Translations under genes and position numbers: made by a program
Source: Candidatus Kapaibacteriota bacterium
GTDB lineage: Bacteria > Bacteroidota > Ignavibacteria > OLB7
DNA: 64,000 bases
Reading direction: 5' to 3'
Assembly: GCA_048594725.1 (NCBI GenBank)
Contig: JBMDXA010000018.1
Span: 10,055 to 74,054 of the forward strand
The notes under the pieces: model-generated
The model's database searches: none
The model's input: only the letters and a program-made list of their open reading frames with translations
Told to the model about the DNA's origin: nothing
Shown here: positions 2,654 to 64,000 of the stretch, piece by piece
How the letters are laid out: the number at the start of each line of letters is the position of its first letter
Numbering within the stretch: position 1 is the stretch's first letter

Positions 2654-2685
2654 CCCCCCAATCGAAAATCGAAAATCGAAAATCC
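2654..2685. repeat. Copy of dispersed C-run + (AATCGAAAATC / CGAAAAT heptamer) intergenic repeat
   Basis: ccccccAATCGAAAATCGAAAATCGAAAATcc, lying between the convergent ABC ATPase and MlaD genes. It directly abuts the MlaD stop codon (rc tca at 2687-2689). Confidence 0.6.
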
Positions 2686-6136: not shown

Positions 6137-6350
6137 GAGCCCCGAAGACGAAACAACGAAGAGCATCCCCATGCAGGTGGGGATGCTCTTTCTTTTTTAT
6201 GGAAGGATCGTTCTTAACAGAAAGGTCGGTGGTCGGTGCGCCGGCTTCGAGCGCCTCCGGCAGTTCGTGGTCGCCGGAGAATGAAATCGCCGGTGCCGCC
6301 GGGGCTTCCGGCGCAAGGACGACGGACTACCGGCGAGGGAATTCCCCCCA

Positions 6351-7271
6351 TCACTTTACAATCGGAACTCCCCCCCACTCCCGTAGATCCCCGATCGTGC
6401 ATCGCACATCGTTCTCCAGGCGGCGGAGCCAGGTCATCTGGCGCTTTGCGTAGCGGCGGGTGGATTGCTGGATAAGATCGATCATGCGGGACTCGCTGAT
6501 TTCCCCGGCAAGCCAGGCAAGCACCTCCGCGTAGCCGACCGTTCGCATCCCCGGAGCATTCCGCTCGTAACCGGCGGCCAGCAGCCCCCTGGTCTCCTCC
6601 ACCAGCCCGGCCTCCAGCATCGACAGAACGCGCCGGTTGATCCGGTCATAGAGCGTGGCCCGCTCCGGCGCGAGAATGTGATAGACGGGTTTGAACGGAG
6701 CCGCCTGGATCGATTCTCCGCCGCTCATAAAAGTGCTGTAGGGAATCCCGGTCTGGTGGTAGCAGCAGAGCGCCCGCAGGGTTTTCACGTGGTTGTTGGG
6801 GGAATGCGCGCGCGCCGCCTCCGGATCGATCCGCATCAGCTCATCGTGGAGACGATCGAACCCCTCCTCCTCCCCCCGCTTCTGAAGCTCCGCAAGGATC
6901 TCCGGGTCCACCGTGGGAGCCCCCAGCCCCTCGAAGAGCGCCTTTACGTAGAATCCCGATCCTCCCACCACCAGCGGCGTCCCCCCGCGTTCCAGTACCC
7001 CGGCGATGGCGTTCCTGGCCGCTTCGGCATACTCACCGGCGGAGTAGAGTACGTCCGGCGCGACGATATCGATAAGATGGTGCCGGACGCGCGCCAGTTC
7101 CTCCGGCGAGGGTTTGGCGGTGCCGATATCCATGCCGGCGTAGATCTGCCGGGAATCGGCCGAGATGATCTCGATGCCGGGATGGCGCTCCGCCAGCTCC
7201 AGCGACAGAGCGGTCTTGCCGGATGCGGTAGGACCGATGATAACCGGAATGGCTCCCCTCTGCACGGTCAT
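6351..7271 (-). CDS. miaA: tRNA dimethylallyltransferase
   Basis: P-loop VIIGPTASGKTALSLELA; IISADSRQIYAGMDIGTAKPSPEE; HHLIDIV motif region. Typical MiaA length. Confidence 0.9.
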   Translation of the reverse strand: MTVQRGAIPVIIGPTASGKTALSLELAERHPGIEIISADSRQIYAGMDIGTAKPSPEELARVRHHLIDIVAPDVLYSAGEYAEAARNAIAGVLERGGTPLVVGGSGFYVKALFEGLGAPTVDPEILAELQKRGEEEGFDRLHDELMRIDPEAARAHSPNNHVKTLRALCCYHQTGIPYSTFMSGGESIQAAPFKPVYHILAPERATLYDRINRRVLSMLEAGLVEETRGLLAAGYERNAPGMRTVGYAEVLAWLAGEISESRMIDLIQQSTRRYAKRQMTWLRRLENDVRCTIGDLREWGGVPIVK

Positions 7272-15474: not shown

Positions 15475-15505
15475 GGGAATTTTCGATTTTCGATTGACGA
15501 TTTCA
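15475..15505. repeat. Copy of the CGAAAAT-heptamer repeat family inside the efflux operon
   Basis: ggggAATTTTCGATTTTCGATTgaCGATTTC, in the 111-bp gap between the ATPase stop and the permease start. Confidence 0.5.
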
Positions 15506-15558: not shown

Positions 15559-16320
<762 letters not shown>

Positions 16321-17702: not shown

Positions 17703-17826
17703 GCTGATATAGGACTGAATGCTTGGTGCTAGGTTCTTGTATGTAGTACTTGCTGCCTGAAAAAACCGCCGGGGATGAGCGCGGGGAAAGGGCCGGTTGT
17801 CCGTTCGAGGGCCTGACCACAATCTT

Positions 17827-17959
17827 CCCCAATCGAAAATCTCTCCCCAATCGTCCCCCTCTTCCCAATCGAAAATCCAAAATCGAAAATCGAAAATTCC
17901 CCCTCTTCCAATCCTCCCTCTTCCCAATCGAAAATCCAAAATCGAAAATCGAAAATCCC
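17827..17959. repeat. Largest block of the CGAAAAT-heptamer repeat family (about 50-bp unit duplicated)
   Basis: ccccAATCGAAAATCtctccccaatcgtccccctcttcccAATCGAAAATCCAAAATCGAAAATCGAAAATtccccctcttccaatcctccctcttcccAATCGAAAATCCAAAATCGAAAATCGAAAATccc. It fills most of the tolC-macA intergenic region and abuts the tolC stop (rc tca at 17960-17962). Confidence 0.8.
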
Positions 17960-23164: not shown

Positions 23165-25288
23165 ATGAGGCATTTCAGACTACTGTGCTCCGCGCTCCTG
23201 ATTGCTCTGTGCTCCTCTCTGGCGCTGATGGCGCAGGATTCGCTCCGCTACTACCGCCTCTACCTGAAGGATAAAGGGACCCCTGAAAGAACTCTCTCCC
23301 CTGCCGATCCCTTCTACAAGCAGGCAACCGCCCATCTTACCGGCCGGGCCCTCGCCCGCCGCGCCAGGGTGCTGCCGGCCGGGAGCCTCGTCTCCACGAG
23401 CGATCTTCCCTTGTACCCCCCCTATCTAGAGGCCATCGCCGCGGCCGGAGCCGAGGTGCGGCAGACCTCCCGCTGGCTGAACACCGCCATGGTCCTGGCC
23501 GACTCGGCAACCTACGAGCGGCTCCGCTCCCTCCCCTTTCTCGATTCGGCGCGGATGATGAAGGCGCGCCGGCGCACTACCGATATCCCGTTCGGCAAGG
23601 GAAGCTCCCTCGTGCGGATACAGACTTCTCCCCCCCCTGCCGATCCCCGTTCCTTCTGCATCACCGATCACTACGGGCGCGCCGACTATCAGAACCGGAT
23701 GACCGGCATCGACAAGGGACATATGCTCGGTATCGCCGGCGAGGGGGTGCTGGTGGGAGTGCTGGACGCCGGGTTCGACTGGCGCGGGCATGCCGCGCTC
23801 CGGCATCTGAATGTGATCGCCGAACATGACTTCGTCTTCAACGACAGCAATGTGGCCGACGAGCCGGGGGAGTTCGGAGCCGAGTCGCACGGCACCACCG
23901 TGATGGGGATGATCGGGGGATATTACCAGAACGTTCTGATAGGAGGTGCCCCGCACGCCAGCTTCATCCTTGCCAAGACCGAGGATATCCGGAGCGAACG
24001 GCAGGTGGAGGAGGATAATTTCGTGGCCGGCCTGGAGTGGATAGAATCGATGGGGGCGGATGTGACCAACACCTCGCTCGGCTATACCACGTTCGATGCC
24101 CCGGAACGCTCCCACGACTATAGCGAACTGGACGGGCGCACCGCCCATGCCTCGCGCGGGCTGAACCACGCCGTATCGCTCGGGGTGGTCTGCGTGGTGG
24201 CCGCCGGCAACGAGGCCGGCAGATACAACTACGTCAGCGTCCCGGCCGAGGCCGATTCGGCGATCGCCGTGGCGGCGGTGGACTCCAGCGGCAGAGTGGC
24301 CTATTTCAGCAGCAGGGGATTCGGCGAGATGACCGTGCCGGGACGGGTCCGGCTGAAGCCGGATGTTGCCGCGTTCGGCGTGGGCAACTGGGGCGCCGAT
24401 CATAGCGATACCTTCAGAATCCTGACCGGCCAGGGAACATCCTATGCCTCGCCGATGGTGGCCGGGGCGGTGGCGATGATCCTTTCGGCACGGCCCGGAC
24501 TTACCCCCTACCAGGTGCGGGAACTTCTGTACAAGACCTCCAGCCGCGCCACCGATCCGGATACCGCCGTGGGACACGGGGTGGTGAATGTGGGAAGAGC
24601 CCTTCAGGAATTGAGCCGGAGCGCGCCGGTGGTGGGACTGCCGAAGGTGATGATGTTCGGCGATCATCTCTCCATCATCGCCGGAACCCTGTTCGAGGGG
24701 GGCATGCCGATGGGGCAGTTCCGGAACGATCTCCCCCTCTCCTCCTATCTGGCCTTGACGGTGGGGGTTCCCGGCGGGCCCGATACCACCATACTGCAAC
24801 CGCAGCCCCTGGCCGGGGTGGCACGATGGTACGTTCCGGCAACCGTGCGCGGAATCAGCCTTACCCCGGAAGACAGCGTGGACCTGATGATCCGCTATGC
24901 CTCCACCGGCGAGATCGTCCGGCAGGGACGCTTCGGCCTGGGAGCATCGCAGGGCACCTTCCAGGTGGCGCAGGGGGTTCCGGATCTGGTCACAAGCACG
25001 CTCTGCGAGATACCGGCCATGCCGGGCACATCGGTAGCGGTGGCGGTGCCGAACCCGTTCCGCCAGTTCACCATGATCGGCTTCGAGACCGGCGATAGAG
25101 CCACCGTCTCGCTGACGGTCTACAACGCGCTCGGCCAGGAGGTGGCCCGGCTTATCGACCAGCGGGAGATGGACCCCGGATTCCATACCAGCTACTTCCA
25201 GCCCGCCGGGCTGCCGGCCGGCTCCTACTACTACATGCTCCAGGTGGGAGAGGATGTGCGAAGCCAGCAGGTGATTTATACGAAGTAA
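23165..25288 (+). CDS. Subtilisin-like serine peptidase (S8) with Por/T9SS-type C-terminal domain
   Basis: Signal peptide MRHFRLLCSALLIALCSSLALMAQ. Catalytic-triad regions: VGVLDAGFD (Asp), ESHGTTVMGMIGG (His), GTSYASPMVAGAVAMI (Ser). C-terminal ...SYYYMLQVGEDVRSQQVIYTK. Confidence 0.85.
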   Translation: MRHFRLLCSALLIALCSSLALMAQDSLRYYRLYLKDKGTPERTLSPADPFYKQATAHLTGRALARRARVLPAGSLVSTSDLPLYPPYLEAIAAAGAEVRQTSRWLNTAMVLADSATYERLRSLPFLDSARMMKARRRTTDIPFGKGSSLVRIQTSPPPADPRSFCITDHYGRADYQNRMTGIDKGHMLGIAGEGVLVGVLDAGFDWRGHAALRHLNVIAEHDFVFNDSNVADEPGEFGAESHGTTVMGMIGGYYQNVLIGGAPHASFILAKTEDIRSERQVEEDNFVAGLEWIESMGADVTNTSLGYTTFDAPERSHDYSELDGRTAHASRGLNHAVSLGVVCVVAAGNEAGRYNYVSVPAEADSAIAVAAVDSSGRVAYFSSRGFGEMTVPGRVRLKPDVAAFGVGNWGADHSDTFRILTGQGTSYASPMVAGAVAMILSARPGLTPYQVRELLYKTSSRATDPDTAVGHGVVNVGRALQELSRSAPVVGLPKVMMFGDHLSIIAGTLFEGGMPMGQFRNDLPLSSYLALTVGVPGGPDTTILQPQPLAGVARWYVPATVRGISLTPEDSVDLMIRYASTGEIVRQGRFGLGASQGTFQVAQGVPDLVTSTLCEIPAMPGTSVAVAVPNPFRQFTMIGFETGDRATVSLTVYNALGQEVARLIDQREMDPGFHTSYFQPAGLPAGSYYYMLQVGEDVRSQQVIYTK

Positions 25289-25424
25289 AAGGGTCAGTGG
25301 TCAGTGCGCGGGCTGCGCCCGCTGTCCGTGGTCCGTGGCTGGTGGAGCAGGGGCTTGCGGCAACTGGGGAGAAGATCTTCTCTCCAACTCCGGACCCCGA
25401 ACTCGGGGGCTCCAGAACTATTCT

Positions 25425-25456
25425 CCCCGATCGAAAATCCAAAATCGAAAATCTCC
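25425..25456. repeat. Copy of the CGAAAAT-heptamer repeat family
   Basis: ccccgATCGAAAATCCAAAATCGAAAATctcc, between the S8 peptidase and the ABC exporter genes. Confidence 0.5.
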
Positions 25457-27517: not shown

Positions 27518-27520
27518 GGC

Positions 27521-27559
27521 GATTTACGATTTCGGATTTTCGATTGGCGATTTTCGATT
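27521..27559. repeat. Copy of the CGAAAAT-heptamer repeat family abutting the ABC exporter stop
   Basis: GATTTaCGATTTCGGATTTTCGATTggCGATTTTCGATT begins 4 nt after the TGA at 27515-27517. Confidence 0.5.
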
Positions 27560-28969: not shown

Positions 28970-30448
28970 CTACCCGGCCATGGCTATCTCCCCGGCGCGT
29001 GCGTCGCACACATCGCAGTTGCCGCAGGGGGGCTCGTCGTGGAAGCCGAAATACTCGGCGATGAAGACGCGGCGGCAGCTCTCGCTCCGGAAATAATGCA
29101 CCATCGCCAGCAGCTTCCGGTTGGCGGCGGTCAGCTTTTCCTGCAGGGCGTCCTCGTCCAGCAGCTCGTCCGGCAGCGCATCCACCACCCGGAGATTCCG
29201 CTCCTCGATCGATCCCTCCGTGACGCCATAACGATCCAGCATGCCCAGCGCGGTCTCCAGACGGAAATCGCGGCGGTTCCTGAAGTTGAGCTGCTCGCGG
29301 AGATGGTCCATGCCGAGCGCATTCGCCATCTCCCCCTCCCCTTCCAGCAGGCCGTACAGGCGCCCGTAGAAGCCCGCGTTCGGGTTGGACCATTTGATGA
29401 AATCCATCTGGATCTGAAGATCATCCTGGTCGTACAGCAGCAGGCAGAGCGCATCCCTGCCATCGCGCCCGGCGCGGCCGATCTCCTGGTAATACGATTC
29501 CACCGACGATGGAACCTCCGCATGGATGATATAGCGGATATCCGGCTTGTCGATCCCCATGCCGAACGCGTTGGTGGCGAGTATCAGCATATTCTCCCCT
29601 TCGATGAACCGCCGCCCGGTGCTCTTGCGAGCGTTCGCCGGCAGCTTGCCGTGGTAGACGCTGTGGCGCACCCCCTTGCTCCGCAGGGTCTCGGAGAACC
29701 GCTCCAGCGTCCCGATCAGAGAGAAGTAGATGATGCCGGAACCGCCGTAGCGCCGGGCCACATCGATCATCGATTCGATCTTCTCCCGCTCCGAGAAGAT
29801 CTCCCGCCCCTGAAGCCTGAGGTTCGGGCGGCGTATCCCCTCGTGGATGATCTCCACATCCTCCAGCCCCAGCCGCGCCACGATATCCTTCTGCACCTCC
29901 TGCGTGGCCGTGGCGGTAAGGGCCACGGTAACCGGATTGCCGATAAGCTCGCGGAACTCGCCGAGCCGCGAATAATCGGGACGGAAATCGTGCCCCCACT
30001 CGGAGATGCAGTGCGCCTCGTCAACCGCCAGCAGCGATATCCGCGCCTCTCGTATGCGCTGCACGAACTCCGGCTTGCGGAAGCGTTCCGGGGTGACATA
30101 CAGCAGCTTGTAGCGCCCGGCGAGGAAATCCTCCAGACGCTTCTCGCGATCGGCCTTCGAGACCGTGGAGTTGATGAACGCCGCCGGGATGCCCCGCCGG
30201 CGCAGGGCATCCACCTGATCCTGCATCAGCGCTATCAGGGGGCTTATCACCAGGGTTCCCCCCTCAAGCGCCAGGGCCGGCACCTGGTAGCAGAGCGATT
30301 TTCCTCCGCCGGTGGGCATCAGCACCAGACAGTGCCCCCGCTCCCCGCCGATGCCGAGCAGGCGGTTGATGATATGTTCCTGCTCTCCGCGAAAGCTCTC
30401 GAAACCGAACGATGAACGGAGGATATCGATTGGGGGGTGAAGAAGCAT
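28970..30448 (-). CDS. recQ: ATP-dependent DNA helicase RecQ
   Basis: [18 protein letters not shown]; Walker [18 protein letters not shown]; DEAH box [21 protein letters not shown]; helicase C motifs; zinc-binding/RQC region. Start chosen at MLLHPP (cat at 30446-30448). The upstream part of the ORF has no coding character and is full of repeats. Confidence 0.9.
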
Positions 30449-30469
30449 GGAAAAGATAGGAGTGCTTGG

Positions 30470-30665
30470 ATTGTAGAACGTAGTTCGTAGTCTGCCGCCT
30501 GCGGCGGCTGTAGATAGTAGTCTGCAGGGAGAAGGTCCGTGCTCGGTAGTCCGCCGTCGGCCGGACGGCACTGCACACCATACTGGTAGATTCAGGAATA
30601 ACGGCGACGGACTACTGATAGCGTACCGACAGCGGGCGAAGCCCGCGAACGGACTACGCACATCT
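30470..30665. repeat. Cluster of GTAGTC / ACGGACTAC REP-like motifs upstream of recQ
   Basis: gtagtctgccgcctgcggcggc...gtagtctgcag...ggtagtccgccgtcggccggacgg...acggactactgatagcgtaccgacaGCGGGCgaaGCCCGCgaACGGACTACgcac. Multiple copies of GTAGTC and its complement, including a hairpin+ACGGACTAC unit that recurs elsewhere in the window. Confidence 0.5.
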
Positions 30666-30872
30666 CTGCCAGTCGTCAATCGAAAATCTTCAAGGCCGGC
30701 CAAAATCGTCATTCCCGCCGAATAGGGAAAATGTTCGTAGCATTGCCGGACGTTCCAGATGTGTTATCTTTGGGCATTCCCAAACGGCCGGGCGCTGCTG
30801 CATCATGGCGACACGATAGAGAGTTTCGGAACGTCGGTACAAGGCAGCGCTCAGCAGTCGCACGGTATATCC

Positions 30873-30954
30873 GGAGGGCTCGCATAATGGTATTGCAGCG
30901 GTCTTGAAAACCGCCGGGCGCAAGCCTGTGGGGGTTCGAGTCCCTCGCCCTCCG
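30873..30954 (+). tRNA. tRNA-Ser (anticodon UGA)
   Basis: Acceptor stem GGAGGGC/GCCCTCC (7 bp perfect). D-arm GCA-TAATGGTAT-TGC. Anticodon arm GCGGT-CTTGAAA-ACCGC, so U33 and anticodon TGA. Long variable arm with GGGC-GCAA-GCCT. T-arm GGGGG-TTCGAGT-CCCTC. Discriminator G. CCA not encoded. Confidence 0.8.
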
Positions 30955-30965
30955 CTTCCTCATAC

Positions 30966-31719: not shown

Positions 31720-32529
31720 ATGCGAACAGAGGAATTTCTAGCCCGCTTTGCACGGGAATTGCCGCTGGAACTGGCGATGGCCGATGATCCGGTGGGAATC
31801 CAGGTGATGGCGGAGGACCGCGAACTGCACACCGTTGCAGTTGCCTACGAAGTGAACGAACAGATGGTGGCGCGCGCCGCCGAGGCGGGAGCCGAACTTA
31901 TCGTCGCCTTCCACCCGCTGATCTATCCCTCGCTGAAACGGATCACCAGAGGCAGCCGTGTGGAACGCACGGTGGTGGAGCTTATCAGCCGCCGTATCGC
32001 GCTCTATATCGTGCACACGGCGTTCGATGCCCACCCCGATGGTACCAGCGCCCTTCTGGGACGCCGGCTAGGTCTGGCCGCTCTGCGTCCCCTGGTCCCG
32101 GACTCACGCCATGAAGGGGCCGGCATGGGGGCGATAGGTATTCTGCCGGAACCGATGGAACTGCACCAGCTTGCACGCCTGCTGAAAGATGCCTGCGGAG
32201 CCCAGGGGGTACGGATATCGGTTTCCCCGGATCGCCCGCAGAGCCCGGTGGTGCAGAGGGTGGCGATCCTCGGCGGAAGCGGGATGAGTTTTTACGACCG
32301 CGCGGTAGAGGCCGGGGCCGATGCATTTATTACCGCCGATGTGCGCTATCATGCGTTTCATGCGGCCAACGATCACATCCCCCTGCTCGATCCCGGCCAT
32401 GCCGAATCCGAGGCGCTGGTAACCGGCGGGATGGCGGCGCTTCTGGCACGGGCGGCCCAGGGGCTGGAACCGGCGGTTGGCGTGGTGGCGCTGGAGGATT
32501 CTACCAATCCCGTGCGCCTGATCGTATAA
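31720..32529 (+). CDS. Nif3-family dinuclear metal centre protein (YqfO/YbgI-like)
   Basis: ...IQVMAEDRELHTVAVAYEVNEQMVARAAEAGAELIVAFHPLIYPSLKRI... and C-terminal ...ITADVRYHAFHAANDHIPLLDPGHAESE are typical of the Nif3/NGG1p-interacting factor 3 family. Confidence 0.85.
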   Translation: MRTEEFLARFARELPLELAMADDPVGIQVMAEDRELHTVAVAYEVNEQMVARAAEAGAELIVAFHPLIYPSLKRITRGSRVERTVVELISRRIALYIVHTAFDAHPDGTSALLGRRLGLAALRPLVPDSRHEGAGMGAIGILPEPMELHQLARLLKDACGAQGVRISVSPDRPQSPVVQRVAILGGSGMSFYDRAVEAGADAFITADVRYHAFHAANDHIPLLDPGHAESEALVTGGMAALLARAAQGLEPAVGVVALEDSTNPVRLIV

Positions 32530-32583: not shown

Positions 32584-33306
32584 GTGGAAGAAGTACTTCG
32601 AGCACTCTACAGACTACAACAGATCGATCTGGAGCTCGATGAGCTGAATGACGGAGGGGGCGATCTGCCGGCCGAGGTCGATCAGCTTCAGAAGAAAATC
32701 GATGAGCTCTCGGCCGCCATGGCGGTTGAAGAGGGGAAGCTCCGCGATCTCCGTGAGTCGCGCACCGGCGCCAACAACGCCATCAACGATATGCGCGAGC
32801 GGGTGAAGATGCTGAACGAACGGCTTCGTACGGTGCGCAACAACAAGGAATACGAGGCCACCACCGCCGATATCGCTTCGGCCGAGGAGGAGCTTCTTGC
32901 CATGGAACGCTCCACCACCACGGTCAATACCCAGGAGGCGATGCTGATCCGCGATATCGAAACGATCAACCGGCAGCGCGAGGAACTGGTCAAGGAGATG
33001 GACGAGAAGAACGATACTCTCACCACCATCCGCGATACGCACGCCGATGAGATCAACTCTCTTCGCACCGCCCGCGAGGAAGTGGCATCCCAGATCAGCC
33101 CCGATCTGCTGAAGCGCTACCGCCATATCCGCACCGCTCACGACGACGCAGTGGTGAAGGTGCGCAAGGGAGCCTGCAACGGCTGCTACCGCGCCATCCC
33201 CCCGCAGACGCTCGTGGAGATGCGCCGCTCCGAACAGCTCTTCAGCTGCGAACACTGCGGCCGTATCATCGTCGATGAGGAAATCGCCGCATCGGTGACG
33301 GTGTAG
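32584..33306 (+). CDS. C4-type zinc-ribbon domain protein (COG1579/DUF164-like), coiled-coil
   Basis: Long coiled-coil (ALYRLQQIDLELDELN...), then C-terminal CNGCYRAIPPQTLVEMRRSEQLFSCEHCGRIIV. This is the classic genomic partner of Nif3. Confidence 0.8.
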   Translation: MEEVLRALYRLQQIDLELDELNDGGGDLPAEVDQLQKKIDELSAAMAVEEGKLRDLRESRTGANNAINDMRERVKMLNERLRTVRNNKEYEATTADIASAEEELLAMERSTTTVNTQEAMLIRDIETINRQREELVKEMDEKNDTLTTIRDTHADEINSLRTAREEVASQISPDLLKRYRHIRTAHDDAVVKVRKGACNGCYRAIPPQTLVEMRRSEQLFSCEHCGRIIVDEEIAASVTV

Positions 33307-33365
33307 TCAGTAGTCAGTAGTCAGTAGTCAGTAGTCAGTAGTCAGTAGTCAGTAGTCAGTAGTCA
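33303..33365. repeat. Heptanucleotide microsatellite (GTAGTCA)x9
   Basis: Nine perfect tandem copies starting inside the TAG stop codon of the zinc-ribbon gene (stop 33304-33306). The complement GACTACT is the core of the ACGGACTAC(T) REP-like motif. Confidence 0.9.
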
Positions 33366-33549
33366 AAATGGCGAAGCTGCTAGCCATGTCAATGCTAATC
33401 AATCACGCTTCGCCGGCTCTACTCCGGATGCCGGGGTTTCAGCCACGAACGACGGACTACTGACGACGGACCAATACCTGATAACCAGAGAAATGCCTCA
33501 GCCAGCCGTATAGCGTTGGCGGCGCTATCTGAATCCCGATCTTTGACAT

Positions 33550-33998
33550 CTCCGGAGTGTGTCGGGCAGTCGCTCGCCGATCATTCGGCGGGAGGAACGT
33601 CCGAACTCCATAGGGCAACGTGCCAGCTAACGGCTGGGCGCCCAATCCCGCGCCGGAAACGGCCGGGAGAGGCGACGGAAAGTGCAACAGAAAGGATACC
33701 GCCCCGTTCCGGCCCGCAGCTGCAATACCAGATGCGGGCCGGGACGGGGTAAGGGTGAAATGGCGAGGTAAGAGCTCACCGCATCCCGGGCAACCGGGAT
33801 GGCAGTGCAAACCCCACGTGGAGCAAGGCCAAATAGGGTGTCGTCATGGAGCTGCCCGCTCCCGATCCTCCCCTCGCGGGAAAAGATCACGGCACCGGGT
33901 AGGCTGCTAGAGGGCGCGGGCGACCGCGCTCCCAGAGAAATGACTGCCTCCACCACCAGGTGTAGACAGAATTCGGCGTACAGACACGCTTCGGAGTA
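33550..33998 (+). ncRNA. rnpB: RNase P RNA, bacterial type A
   Basis: Conserved blocks: GGAGGAACGTCCGAACTCCATAGGGCAA (P4 5' strand), GTGCAACAGAAAGGATACCGCC, GGGGTAAGGGTGAAATGGCGAGGTAAGAGCTCACC, GGAGCAAGGCCAAATAGGG, ACAGAATTCGGCGTACAG (P4 3' strand). P1 pairing CCGGAGTGTGTC (33552-33563) with GACACGCTTCGG (33983-33994). Ends are approximate to within about 10 nt. Confidence 0.85.
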
Positions 33999-34227
33999 TG
34001 TTGTTTTCAGGATTGCGGATGGCGATTGCAGAAGCGATCCGTAACGGCCATGGAAGATCGGACCGATCGATCGTACCGATCTCCCCCCCGTTCGTCGCAG
34101 CGGAAACTTCCGGCCGGTTCCGGTATGATTCATCGATGGGGACCCCGAGGGTCCCTTTTCCTTTTCCCCTTCATTCCTCCTCCCCACGCCCCGGCGCGGG
34201 ACCACGTTCATCAACTTGCACCCGTAG

Positions 34228-43770: not shown

Positions 43771-43810
43771 TCCCCAATCGAAAATCGAAAATCGCCAATC
43801 GAAAATCCCC
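43771..43810. repeat. Copy of the CGAAAAT-heptamer repeat family abutting the ppk stop
   Basis: ccccAATCGAAAATCGAAAATCGccAATCGAAAATccccc, immediately followed by the ppk stop codon (rc cta at 43811-43813). Confidence 0.6.
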
Positions 43811-63100: not shown

Positions 63101-63245
63101 GGTTTTCCGCAGAAGAGAAAAAAATGAGAATGCGAGCCTGCCCCGGCCAGGGAAAATAGAGGCAAAAAATGCCACTGAAAATCGATCACCACCATATCAT
63201 GTAACGCCTCTGCATATCATGTAACGCATCTGCCATGAAAAATTC

Positions 63246-64000
63246 TCACTGCCGTACGATCAGGGGGAATGTTGCGCTGAGACCTCCCGGAACGCTCAGC
63301 ACAAGCAGATAGGGTCCTGCGGCGAGACTCCCCAGATCAATATCGATAGCGTTGTGGCCGGCAACGGCATCCTGCCGGATAGCCGGGAGAGCAGAGGCTC
63401 CCAGCATATCGAAGAGCGCAAGATGCACCCCGGCAGCTTCAGGGATGGAATATTCCACATGCGCCCGCCTGCCGGCAGCACCGTACCGTACGCCGTGCAC
63501 GAGAATACGCGCTCCCCCTGCCGCACGATTCCGGTCACCATTGATGAAAGCCCCCGACGTATTCTCCTTCCATTCCGGCATAGGGAACGGAGTCCCATAA
63601 ATCTCCGGTTCGCCGGTACGATGATCCTCCCAGACCACCATGAGCGTATCATGGCGGAACCGGGCGGCTGGAGAACGCACCACTCCCTTTGTAGCACTGA
63701 TCGCGGTATCGGCCAGCAGGGTGCGGAGCGAGCGCGGTTCGAGGAATATTCCCCGCACCCCTGAATCGCCACCGTAGACTACGGCAATCGTTGAATCCTC
63801 GCGGCTCTGCGCCATCGCCATGCCGGCCGGCTTCCGCCTGAACAGGAGAGGACTACTCCTCAACATCTCGCCACCGGGGGAATACCGTGCAATCTCATAG
63901 CGTAATCCGCTGGTATCGGCGGCGCGGATACGAAAGAATGTTCCATCGCGCAAGGGATGATACAGCGACCAGCTCTTCGGATTATCGAGCTCGAATCGTC
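63246..64000 (-). CDS. Paralogue of the preceding PD40-like T9SS cargo protein (3' part only; gene runs off the window)
   Basis: ...RFRHDTLMVVWEDHRTGEPEIYGTPFP parallels FRNDSLFIVWEDYRNGNPDIYGAAYP of the neighbour. C-terminus ...GPYLLVLSVPGGLSATFPLIVRQ. The reading frame stays open to the window edge. Confidence 0.6.
   Translation of the reverse strand, partial: RFELDNPKSWSLYHPLRDGTFFRIRAADTSGLRYEIARYSPGGEMLRSSPLLFRRKPAGMAMAQSREDSTIAVVYGGDSGVRGIFLEPRSLRTLLADTAISATKGVVRSPAARFRHDTLMVVWEDHRTGEPEIYGTPFPMPEWKENTSGAFINGDRNRAAGGARILVHGVRYGAAGRRAHVEYSIPEAAGVHLALFDMLGASALPAIRQDAVAGHNAIDIDLGSLAAGPYLLVLSVPGGLSATFPLIVRQ

What the first reader, a model, noticed from the sequence alone, without database searches (positions are those of the whole stretch)
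33303..33365. (GTAGTCA)x9 microsatellite starting inside the stop codon of the COG1579 zinc-ribbon gene, about 190 bp upstream of rnpB
Perfect heptanucleotide tandem repeats are rare in bacterial chromosomes and are classic slipped-strand mutation substrates. The array uses the TAG stop of the upstream gene as part of its first unit. Every reading frame of the repeat contains TAG, so copy-number change cannot extend the ORF. It could, however, alter spacing between the upstream operon's end and the rnpB promoter. The unit is the complement of the GACTACT core of the REP-like motif, so it may be an expanded REP core.
Basis: seen in the sequence. Interest (0 to 1): 0.5.

Follow-up and report, generated by a model that had tools for sequence, protein, structure and literature searches.

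The report
Expanded heptamer arm of REP-like hairpin
The nine perfect GTAGTCA copies are real, but they are most likely the slippage-expanded outer arm of a small species-specific palindromic repeat element sitting in the spacer between a zinc-ribbon gene and the RNase P RNA gene; this kind of repeat is already known and it is unlikely to be a genetic switch.

Summary
Positions 33303-33365 are a perfect (GTAGTCA)x9. Its first unit holds the TAG stop (33304-33306) of a Zn_ribbon_9/CT398-type gene, and rnpB starts 188 nt downstream.

It is not a free-standing microsatellite. A degenerate inverted copy lies 83 nt downstream (33449-33471), and the two arms enclose two stem-loops. This 150-nt unit folds much better than shuffles (z = -4.0).

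The window also carries a dispersed motif, GTAGTCCG. It often appears as two 7-nt units followed by a GC hairpin, just 3' of several genes. The motif is absent from about 62 kb of orthologous DNA from eight more distant relatives.

Those relatives keep the gene-to-rnpB order but have no array. Their spacer is about 30-55 nt in seven and about 145 nt in one. Species-level metagenome strains do have an array at the same site, with unit GTAGTTA, a matching G-to-A change in the inverted arm, and a different distance to rnpB.

(GTAGTYA)>=3 arrays are common in metagenomes. Their inverted partner lies downstream 25-31 times and upstream 1-2 times, so the GTAG ends face outward, as in head-to-head REP doublets.

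My reading: this is the slippage-expanded tail of a REP/STRR-like hairpin element in a probably transcribed spacer. It is probably length-variable and has no switch function. The kind is ordinary and the interest modest.

The parts
32584..33306 (+). COG1579/CT398-type zinc-ribbon gene (240 aa). Its TAG stop (33304-33306) lies inside the first repeat unit.
   Evidence: ORF list. Pfam Zn_ribbon_9 43.9 bits and CT398_CC 26.4 bits. Homologues at 42-97% identity all carry PF02591. It is preceded by a NIF3/DUF34 gene at 31720-32529.
33303..33365 (+). (GTAGTCA)x9, perfect. This is the 5' (outer, GTAG-bearing) arm of the inverted-repeat element.
   Evidence: TRF score 126, 100% matches. Sequence. Pairs with 33449-33471 in the predicted fold.
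33370..33414 (+). Inner stem-loop 1: GGCGAAGC, a 29-nt loop, then GCTTCGCC.
   Evidence: 8-bp perfect inverted repeat (I14). Present in the MFE and centroid folds. In L135/L136 the stem is kept, with two A-to-G changes that turn A-U pairs into G-U pairs.
33415..33444 (+). Inner stem-loop 2: GGCT..CTCCGG ATG CCGGGG..AGCC.
   Evidence: Predicted in the MFE and centroid folds. Coordinates. A hairpin occupies the same position in L135.
33449..33471 (-). 3' arm, made of degenerate inverted heptamers. Read on the - strand it is GTCCGTC GTCAGTA GTCCGTC GT and contains the dispersed motif GTAGTCCG.
   Evidence: 23 nt, 83% complementary to the array, with a 10-nt perfect core GACTACTGAC. Two-unit heptamer matches at 33448 and 33455 on the - strand.
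33476..33530 (.). Extra spacer found only in the window's strain. No counterpart in sister strains L135/L136.
   Evidence: Alignments and raw sequences.
33538..33549 (+). Conserved box GATCTTTGACAT, 4 nt before the first rnpB model position. It is a candidate Bacteroidetes-type -7 promoter element (TAnnTTTG-like), which would place the transcription start at about the mature 5' end.
   Evidence: Identical or nearly so in the window, L001-L005, L011, L135 and L136, and partly in L007, while everything upstream differs. The promoter assignment is inference from the known FCB-group consensus. No sigma-70-type site was found.
33554..33996 (+). rnpB, RNase P RNA class A.
   Evidence: RF00010, 278.8 bits, full length. 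It occupies the same position after the zinc-ribbon gene in L001-L008.

Best explanation
The tract is the outer 5' arm (the 'tail') of a small, lineage-specific palindromic element of the REP/STRR type. The element was inserted between the stop codon of the zinc-ribbon gene and the rnpB promoter box.

Layout: GTAG-bearing heptamers (33303-33365), stem-loop 1, stem-loop 2, then inverted heptamers (33449-33471). The GTAG ends face outward, as in head-to-head REP doublets (REPIN/BIME).

The tail of this genome's dispersed motif already has a 7-nt period (GTAGTCC GTCGTCC). That makes it a ready proto-microsatellite. Replication slippage has amplified and homogenised one unit into nine identical copies, and the inverted arm has stayed short and degenerate.

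The array cannot affect the protein, because TAG occurs in every frame. It lies too far from the only conserved rnpB upstream element, at a non-conserved distance, to set promoter geometry.

The element is probably transcribed as the 3' UTR or intercistronic spacer of the NIF3/zinc-ribbon operon. There the two arms close a three-way junction, which may protect the mRNA 3' end as REPs do.

Array length itself is most likely neutral and fast-changing.

Shown: anatomy, lineage restriction, motif enrichment, fold excess, and orientation rule. Inferred: origin by insertion, expansion by slippage, transcription, and neutrality.
For: (1) Anatomy. A 23-nt arm, 83% complementary with a 10-nt perfect core, lies 83 nt downstream. 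By my calculation the chance of a 10-nt perfect match within 250 nt is about 0.002. Positions 33331-33480 fold at -55.2 kcal/mol against -39.5 +/- 3.9 for shuffles (z = -4.0, 0 of 200 shuffles as good), with an outer arm-arm stem and two inner hairpins.

(2) Dispersed family.
- CGGACTAC occurs 9 times against 1.3 expected.
- Two-unit heptamers occur at 6318(-), 30480(+), 33448(-) and 33455(-) against 0.05 expected.
- GTAGTC lies on the sense strand 0-30 nt after the stops of the genes ending at 6351, 15559, 19644, 28970 and 34757. None lies in the opposite orientation in truly intergenic 3' flanks.
- In two cases (30650 and 34721) it is followed directly by a GCGGGC-NNN-GCCCGC hairpin.

(3) Lineage restriction.
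- The motif is absent from about 62 kb of L001-L008 and present in sister strain L010.
- L001-L008 and L011 keep the gene-to-rnpB order but have no array. The spacer is about 30-55 nt, and about 145 nt in L006.

(4) Persistence with turnover in species-level strains.
- L013 has (GTAGTTA)>=8.9 starting in the TAG stop.
- L010 and L012 have a TGA stop followed by (GTAGTTA)n.
- L135 and L136 show the right flank with the same stem-loops and an inverted AACTACTA.
- The C/T difference in the unit is matched by a G/A difference in the inverted arm.

(5) Generality. Among (GTAGTYA)>=3 arrays in 120 metagenome contigs, a reverse-complement copy lies downstream in 25-31 cases and upstream in 1-2 (p about 1e-6).

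(6) Literature. This orientation is the head-to-head type, GTAG termini outside, which Di Nocera et al. describe as predominant for GTAG REPs. They also report that REPs lie mostly downstream of coding regions (PMC3733652).

(7) Heptamer SSRs just 3' of ORFs, overlapping stop codons, absent from close relatives and breaking assemblies are all documented (PMC4679880; PMC4692102).
Against: - No REP-associated transposase (RAYT) was found, though only 7 small ORFs of a 64-kb window were scanned.
- The family is small in the window (9 motif copies), and the hairpins next to the motif are heterogeneous. It is therefore REP-like and not a demonstrated REP.
- The orthology of the inverted arm between the window and L135/L136 depends on the alignment. 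MAFFT placed it differently from my reading. The covariation rests on a single substitution between two lineages.
- L135 folds no better than shuffles (z = -0.7).
- Copy-number variation, transcription and any RNA role are untested.
- The insertion has no recognisable target-site duplication and no second full-length copy in the window.
Confidence: 0.6

Rival explanations
1. A plain, neutral microsatellite born by slippage from a chance proto-repeat. It would be unrelated to any dispersed element, and the downstream inverted copy and the motif enrichment would be coincidental.
For: Heptanucleotide SSRs are the commonest long SSR class in bacteria and are mostly intergenic (PMC4679880; PMC4692102). 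The array is perfect and lineage-restricted. No other GTAGTCA array exists in the window.
Against: A 10-nt perfect inverted core within 90 nt has a chance probability of about 0.002. The same inverted arrangement recurs in about a quarter of unrelated GTAGTYA arrays, with a strong orientation rule. The motif is enriched 7-fold, and the two-unit tails about 80-fold, in the window.
Confidence: 0.15
2. A selected RNA element. The array and its inverted arm would form a long-range stem in the 3' UTR or pre-rnpB spacer. That stem would stabilise the upstream mRNA, terminate or insulate transcription, or guide processing, and array length would be under selection.
For: Fold excess z = -4.0. The same three-way topology appears in L135. 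The unit C/T change is matched by G/A in the other arm, and stem-loop 1 is kept through A-U to G-U changes that are tolerated in RNA. REPs are known to act as RNA elements downstream of genes (PMC3733652).
Against: Nine units far exceed what the 23-nt 3' arm can pair with. In the sister strains the arms share only 8 complementary bases, and the fold is not better than shuffles. There is no terminator-like U tract. Relatives manage without the element. The covariation can equally come from DNA-level quasi-palindrome correction by template switching (established mechanism, from my own knowledge).
Confidence: 0.15
3. A phase-variable contingency locus. Copy-number change would alter spacing and so tune rnpB transcription or expression of the upstream operon.
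For: Perfect SSRs are hypermutable. The array sits between an operon end and an essential RNA gene.
Against: The array lies after the stop codon and has stops in all frames. It is 172 nt from the only conserved upstream box. That distance is about 90-105 nt in sister strains, and the element is absent in relatives. No sigma-70-type promoter lies nearby. rnpB is a housekeeping gene, which makes it an unlikely target for on/off switching (general knowledge).
Confidence: 0.03
4. An assembly artefact, with the repeat created or its length distorted by the assembler.
For: Short-read assemblies break at this site, so the nine copies in the window may not be exact.
Against: Five contigs from three other samples independently enter a heptamer array at the same junction from the left or from the right.
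Confidence: 0.02

Closest known systems
GTAG-tagged REP head-to-head dimers (REPIN / BIME)
   Same: A dispersed, lineage-specific extragenic motif with a GTAG head next to GC hairpins. It sits just downstream of coding regions. At this locus there are two copies in inverted orientation with the GTAG ends outside, enclosing structured spacers, and they are predicted to fold as one large hairpin or cloverleaf (definitions in PMC3733652 and PMC3116915).
   Different: The head is a tandem heptamer array and not a single GTAG tail. The adjacent hairpins are heterogeneous. Copy number in the 64 kb is low, and no RAYT gene was seen. The host belongs to the FCB group (Kapaibacteria-like), where that survey reported only CGTC-type REPs for Chlorobi and Bacteroidetes.
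Intergenic heptanucleotide long SSRs: TAACTGA repeats (Beggiatoaceae, Cyanobacteria, Bacteroidetes) and GGGAATC / GGGGAYT repeats (Xanthomonas, Nostoc)
   Same: The unit is 7 nt and the arrays are intergenic. They are often within a few nt of, or overlapping, the stop codon of the upstream ORF, with stops in all forward frames. Close relatives have shorter spacers without repeats. Contigs end inside the arrays, and some arrays come as inverted pairs (PMC4679880; PMC4692102).
   Different: The unit sequence is different (GTAGTCA/GTAGTTA). Here there is one long array, not hundreds. TAACTGA repeats in the best-studied genome cluster just upstream of start codons, which is not the case here.
STRR (short tandemly repeated repetitive) heptamers of heterocystous cyanobacteria, including those inside rnpB helix P12
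   Same: Tandem heptamers that build long hairpin arms. One metagenome contig (L040) has (TGACTAC)x4 inside an rnpB gene at the P12 position, the situation named in the title of Vioque 1997 (reference list of PMC2858038).
   Different: The organism is not a cyanobacterium. In the window the array is outside rnpB, 188 nt upstream. The classical STRR units (CCCCAGT, TTGGTCA, CAACAGT, from my memory) differ.
Phase-variable contingency SSRs (Haemophilus, Neisseria, Moraxella)
   Same: A perfect short tandem repeat prone to slipped-strand mispairing.
   Different: The array is not inside an ORF, not between promoter hexamers, and not in a 5' UTR. No expression consequence of a length change can be derived.

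Membership tests
Long simple sequence repeat (heptanucleotide SSR) | Head-to-tail copies of a 1-11 nt unit, longer than chance allows | tested here: met
   9.0 perfect copies, TRF score 126. 13 matches against 0.5 expected.
Long simple sequence repeat (heptanucleotide SSR) | Length polymorphism between strains | tested here: inconclusive
   Every contig from the sister strains ends inside the array: L013 at least 8.9 units, L010/L012/L135/L136 at least 4. The unit sequence (C/T) and the junction with the stop codon (TAG in the unit, or TGA before it) do differ.
REP / REPIN (GTAG-tagged, head-to-head dimer) | Short motif over-represented in extragenic DNA | tested here: met
   CGGACTAC occurs 9 times against 1.3 expected. 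8 of the 9 lie outside confident coding sequence. The test covers only 64 kb.
REP / REPIN (GTAG-tagged, head-to-head dimer) | Unpaired GTAG tag next to a stem-loop | tested here: inconclusive
   GTAGTCCG followed by GCGGGC-NNN-GCCCGC at 30650(-) and 34721(-). Other copies have different hairpins or use the motif as part of the stem.
REP / REPIN (GTAG-tagged, head-to-head dimer) | Inverted doublet with GTAG ends outside, folding as one hairpin | tested here: met
   Arms at 33303-33365 and 33449-33471. Fold z = -4.0. The same orientation holds in 25-31 of the unrelated arrays against 1-2 in the reverse orientation.
REP / REPIN (GTAG-tagged, head-to-head dimer) | Cognate RAYT (Y1 transposase) gene in the genome, flanked by the REPs | not testable with these tools
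   None found among 7 small ORFs scanned.
Cyanobacterial STRR | Many dispersed arrays of the same heptamer in the genome of a heterocystous cyanobacterium | tested here: not met
   There is only one GTAGTCA array in 64 kb. The host is related to Kapaibacteria/Chlorobiota MAGs.
Phase-variation contingency locus | Repeat placed where a change in unit number alters the reading frame or promoter geometry | tested here: not met
   The array starts at the stop codon and has stops in all frames. It is 172 nt from the conserved rnpB box, and that distance is not conserved.
Intrinsic terminator | GC-rich hairpin followed by a U tract | tested here: not met
   No terminator-like site lies between 33100 and 33553. 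The only one is after rnpB, at 34138.

The most novel reading that the evidence does not exclude
GTRGNYA-type heptamer arrays may be a widespread, directional class of palindromic element spanning many phyla, with the layout 5'-(GTAGTCA)n, then 15-130 nt, then (TGACTAC)m-3'. On this reading they are the amplified GTAG tails of REP-like doublets. They land at gene 3' ends, where they often supply the stop codon (36 long ORFs abut them in the sense orientation against 4 in the antisense orientation).

If their amplification or spread depends on GTAG-recognising Y1 (RAYT-like) enzymes and not only on polymerase slippage, this would connect the long-noted excess of heptanucleotide SSRs in bacteria, and cyanobacterial STRRs, to REP/RAYT biology.
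Probability: 0.12. Interest if true: 0.6.

Novelty: new member of a known kind. Interest (0 to 1): 0.3.

Why it matters
For this locus the result removes a tempting but unsupported idea, a repeat-length switch acting on RNase P RNA. It replaces that idea with an ordinary one: a species-specific REP/STRR-like hairpin element whose tail has been blown up by slippage.

Practical consequences:
- The site will break short-read assemblies.
- It could serve as a strain-typing marker for this Kapaibacteria-like lineage.

The side result deserves a proper genome-wide census. Such heptamer arrays almost always sit as outward-facing inverted pairs and abut gene ends in one orientation. That may help explain why 7-nt units dominate long bacterial SSRs.

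Tried and rejected
- Exact-protein look-ups of the window's zinc-ribbon and TPR proteins found no record, so the same strain could not be re-sampled.
- ERR12037361 has the gene on a contig that ends 41 nt after it, but no DNA was served.
- L014 ends 7 nt after the stop codon and is uninformative.
It returned no orthologous locus, so it gave class-level data only and no copy numbers.
- BLAST of the 258-nt spacer against the window and the relatives found no second copy of the whole insert. Only the 12-14-nt motif matched.
- An Rfam search at E<=1 over 33200-33600 gave only a chance-level hit.
- A 31-codon ORF inside the insert (33368-33463) was rejected as a gene. The homologous ATG in L135 opens only 4 codons.
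- No sigma-70 promoter or terminator lies in the spacer.
- A -33 TTTG partner for the putative -7 box is not conserved, so the promoter assignment remains an inference.
- I looked for a remnant of an ancestral stop codon in TCTGAATCCCG, which the window shares with L002. It is suggestive only, and no target-site duplication could be defined.
- Vioque 1997 (PMC146911) is not held, so it is cited only from a reference list.
Full report
**Observation.** The sequence at 33303-33365 is exactly nine head-to-tail copies of GTAGTCA: TRF period 7, 9.0 copies, 100% matches, score 126 (raw sequence). The period does not extend by one base on either side. The ORF 32584-33306 (+) ends GTG TAG. The array's first G is therefore the last base of the final Val codon, and TAG (33304-33306) lies inside unit 1. 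The protein carries Pfam Zn_ribbon_9 above its cutoff and the CT398-like coiled coil just below its cutoff. All 83 homologues found carry PF02591. rnpB (RF00010, 278.8 bits) occupies 33554-33996 on the same strand, 188 nt beyond the array. By direct reading, each + frame of the repeat meets TAG and each - frame meets TGA once per 21 nt. The claim that such repeats are rare is overstated, because heptamers are reported as the commonest long SSR unit in bacteria (Mrazek 2007 as summarised in PMC4679880).

**Organism and synteny.** The closest genomes are uncultured Kapaibacteria/Chlorobiota-like MAGs, with 59-85% identity for the zinc-ribbon protein. In all eight (L001-L008) the order tRNA-Ser, NIF3, zinc-ribbon gene, rnpB is kept. 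None has a heptamer array. The stop codon lies only about 30-55 nt from the rnpB model start, and about 145 nt in L006. An 88%-identical Logan contig (L011) is the same, with a spacer of about 45 nt. The window therefore carries roughly 200 extra nucleotides. The only upstream sequence shared by the window and most of these relatives (not L006 or L008) is the box G(A/T)TC(T/C)TTGACAT, directly 5' of the first rnpB position (33538-33549). It resembles the Bacteroidetes-type -7 element TAnnTTTG and would place the transcription start at about the mature 5' end. This is my inference, not a measurement. No sigma-70-type site and no terminator-like site lies in the spacer.

**Anatomy of the extra DNA.**
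- 83 nt after the array lies ACGACGG ACTACTG ACGACGG AC (33449-33471). It is a degenerate inverted copy of about three heptamers, 23 nt and 83% complementary to the array, with a perfect 10-nt core.
- Between the arms are two local stem-loops, at 33370-33414 and 33415-33444.
- The 150-nt unit 33331-33480 folds at -55.2 kcal/mol against -39.5 +/- 3.9 for 200 shuffles (z = -4.0). The fold is an arm-arm outer stem closing a three-way junction.
- The whole 271-nt spacer, with all nine units, is less exceptional (z = -1.9). Nine units far exceed what the short 3' arm can pair with.

**A dispersed motif.**
- The 8-mer CGGACTAC/GTAGTCCG occurs 9 times in the window against 1.3 expected.
- The two-unit form GTMGTYNGTMGTY occurs at four places outside the array against 0.05 expected: 6318-, 30480+, 33448-, 33455-.
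- With a heuristic gene map (spot-checked by Pfam), GTAGTC lies on the sense strand 0-30 nt after the stop codons of the genes ending at 6351, 15559, 19644, 28970 and 34757. At 28970 the TAG stop is inside the motif, as it is at 33304. No copy lies in the opposite orientation in a truly intergenic 3' flank.
- At 30650 and 34721 the motif is followed directly by a GCGGGC-NNN-GCCCGC hairpin. The same hairpin occurs at 25308, flanked by other short heptamer repeats.
- A cluster at 30478-30660, upstream of tRNA-Ser and of the probable true start of a RecQ-like gene, has GTAG-type copies on the left and CTAC-type copies on the right.
- The motif is absent from about 62 kb of L001-L008 but present in sister strain L010.
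- This is the behaviour of a species-specific REP family.

**Sister strains.** A cluster of proteins at least 90% identical to the window's zinc-ribbon protein comes from five other samples.
- L013 (an ENA scaffold) reads GTG TAG TTA and continues as (GTAGTTA) for at least 8.9 units to the contig end.
- L010 and L012 read GTG TGA TA and then (GTAGTTA)n to the contig end.
- From the other side, contigs L135 and L136 were found through the downstream TPR gene, in the same samples as L010 and L012. They start inside (GTAGTTA)n and run through AAGATGGCGGGGCC...GCTTCGCCGG, a second hairpin and (A/G)AACTACTAC into CGATCTTTGACAT and rnpB.

These contigs show four things.
- The array is a stable feature of this species-level lineage.
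- All units have been homogenised to a different sequence (T instead of C) and the junction with the stop codon differs, which is what rapid contraction and re-expansion produces.
- The inverted arm carries the matching change (AACTAC instead of GACTAC), and stem-loop 1 is kept through A-U to G-U changes.
- The distance from the array to the rnpB box is about 90-105 nt instead of 172. L136 has in addition acquired a GCCGCC-GCAG-GCGGCGG hairpin resembling the hairpins at 30493 and about 36070 in the window.

There are caveats. The covariation is a single event. MAFFT aligned the arms differently from my reading. L135 does not fold better than shuffles. DNA-level quasi-palindrome correction could explain the covariation without any RNA selection. 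Copy numbers could not be compared, because every short-read contig breaks in the array.

**The wider class.** A capped scan of JGI metagenome contigs for (GTAGTYA)3 returned at least 120 contigs, with G+C 0.30-0.73 and arrays of up to 17 units. None is the orthologous locus.
- Of about 100 arrays with enough flank, 25-31 have a reverse-complement copy of 8-12 nt or more within 150-250 nt downstream, against 1-2 upstream. Binomial p is about 1e-6, and reversed-sequence controls give 0-4.
- The common architecture is 5'-(GTAGTCA-like heptamers)n, then 15-130 nt, then (TGACTAC-like heptamers)m-3'. The window's element fits it.
- 36 arrays abut the end of a long open frame in the GTAGTYA (sense) orientation, against 4 in the opposite orientation. 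Several of these ORFs have strongly coding GC3. In most of them the array's TAG is the stop codon.
- One contig (L040) has (TGACTAC)x4 inside an rnpB gene, just before the conserved GGUAAGGGUGAAA, which is the P12 region.
- These counts come from the first 120 contigs of a capped scan, and pairs with two long arms are counted twice. The asymmetry is too large to be explained by that.

**Comparison with known systems.** The outward-facing GTAG arrangement is what Di Nocera et al. call head-to-head dimers, the predominant form of GTAG-tagged REPs. Those REPs lie mostly downstream of coding regions, have spacers of 20-100 bp that are often structured, and are thought to be mobilised by RAYT transposases (PMC3733652; REPIN concept in PMC3116915). 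Several features of this locus are described for intergenic heptamer repeats:
- Position within a few nucleotides of the upstream ORF (28 nt on average in Xanthomonas; PMC4692102).
- Overlap with stop codons, and stops in all forward frames.
- Absence from the closest relatives, which have shorter spacers.
- Contigs that end in the repeat.

The last three are described for TAACTGA repeats (PMC4679880). STRR heptamers inside cyanobacterial rnpB are named in the title of Vioque 1997 (reference list of PMC2858038). I found no mention of heptamer expansion of REP tails in PMC3733652, but I did not survey the literature exhaustively.

**Membership.**
- As a long heptanucleotide SSR the tract qualifies outright.
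- As a REP/REPIN it meets three criteria: enrichment, extragenic 3' location and an outward-facing inverted doublet. The tag-plus-stem criterion is only partly met, and the RAYT criterion could not be tested.
- It is not a cyanobacterial STRR. The host is wrong and there is a single array.
- It fails the defining feature of a contingency locus, because no frame or promoter geometry depends on its length.
- It is not an intrinsic terminator.

**Mechanism, committed.** A REP-like doublet, with its tail already periodic at 7 nt, was inserted or assembled in the spacer after the zinc-ribbon gene in the ancestor of this species-level lineage. Slipped-strand mispairing then amplified one tail unit, and repeated contraction and expansion keeps the array perfect while letting the unit drift (C or T). 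The element is probably transcribed with the upstream operon and may cap its 3' end. rnpB is driven from the box at 33538-33549 and is indifferent to the array. I put about 0.6 on this.

**Verdict.** This is a real feature, correctly described, and a new member of known kinds (intergenic heptamer SSR and REP-like hairpin doublet). The proposed regulatory role is not supported. Interest is modest, at 0.3. The class-level orientation rule is the most interesting by-product.

Noticed in passing
window 2660-2684, 15479-15503, 17821-17957, 25430-25453, 27520-27559, 43776-43807: A second heptamer family, AATCGAA / GATTTTC, occurs as 3-6-unit arrays. These typically start right after the stop codon on the sense strand (genes ending at 2687, 17960, 27517 and 43811) and end in a G run (GATTGGGG). 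At 17821-17957 there are two direct blocks between co-directional genes. No inverted partners were seen, so this family behaves differently from the GTAGTCA type.
   Followed up: partly
window 25292-25338: (GGTCAGT)x2, then the hairpin GCGGGCTGCGCCCGC, then (GTCCGTG)x2, directly after the TAA stop of a subtilase gene (23165-25288). This is another heptamer-flanked copy of the GCGGGC-NNN-GCCCGC hairpin, which is also found at 30632 and 34703.
   Followed up: partly
window 30478-30660: A cluster of GTAG-type motifs (GTAGTTC GTAGTCT; GTAGATA GTAGTCT; GGTAGTCCG) is followed by CTAC-type motifs (CGGACTACTGA; CGGACTACGC) with GC hairpins between them. The cluster lies upstream of tRNA-Ser(TGA) (30873-30955). 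It falls inside the over-long ORF call 28970-30712, whose helicase domain starts only at residue 111, so the region is probably intergenic.
   Followed up: partly
window 2590, 2640, 6270s, 9440, 33443, 34690: The short motif GCCACGAAC / GTTCGTGGC recurs in intergenic hairpin regions next to the GTAGTC motif. It looks like another piece of the same small-repeat repertoire.
   Followed up: no
window 33538-33549 and the same position in L001-L005, L007, L011, L135, L136: The box G(A/T)TC(T/C)TTGACAT immediately 5' of the rnpB mature end is conserved, while everything upstream diverges. In most relatives the zinc-ribbon stop codon is only 20-45 nt away. Either the rnpB promoter overlaps the gene end, or rnpB is also made by processing of read-through transcripts.
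   Followed up: partly
L040 1-278 (soil metagenome contig Ga0182033_10516148): (TGACTAC)x4 lies inside an RNase P RNA gene (RF00010, 139 bits, 5'-truncated), just before the conserved GGUAAGGGUGAAA. This is the variable P12 helix, as reported for STRR repeats in cyanobacterial rnpB.
   Followed up: partly
L124 3285-3386 (metagenome contig Ga... 13.6 kb, GC 0.69): (GTAGTCA)x14 sits immediately upstream of the ribosome-binding site of an ABC-transporter ATPase. That gene is homologous (67% nt identity) to window gene 15559-16320, which itself has a GTAGTCCG motif 19 nt after its stop codon.
   Followed up: no
L055 and L122 (metagenome contigs, GC 0.53 and 0.71): In two unrelated organisms the 3' arm of an inverted heptamer element ends a few nucleotides before the start codon of the same kind of gene. 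The N-termini are MIKLGVIGYGYWGPN and MPISVGVIGCGYWGPN, which look like Gfo/Idh/MocA oxidoreductases.
   Followed up: no
L136 95-120 versus window 30493-30510 and about 36070: One sister strain has an extra hairpin, GCCGCC-GCAG-GCGGCGG, in the spacer between the array and rnpB. It resembles the GCCGCC-TGC-GGCGGC hairpins elsewhere in the window. Small hairpin motifs seem to come and go at this spot.
   Followed up: no
window 63193-63233: A 20-nt unit, CATATCATGTAACGCATCTG, is repeated twice in tandem (95% identity) just downstream of the gene ending at 63296.
   Followed up: no
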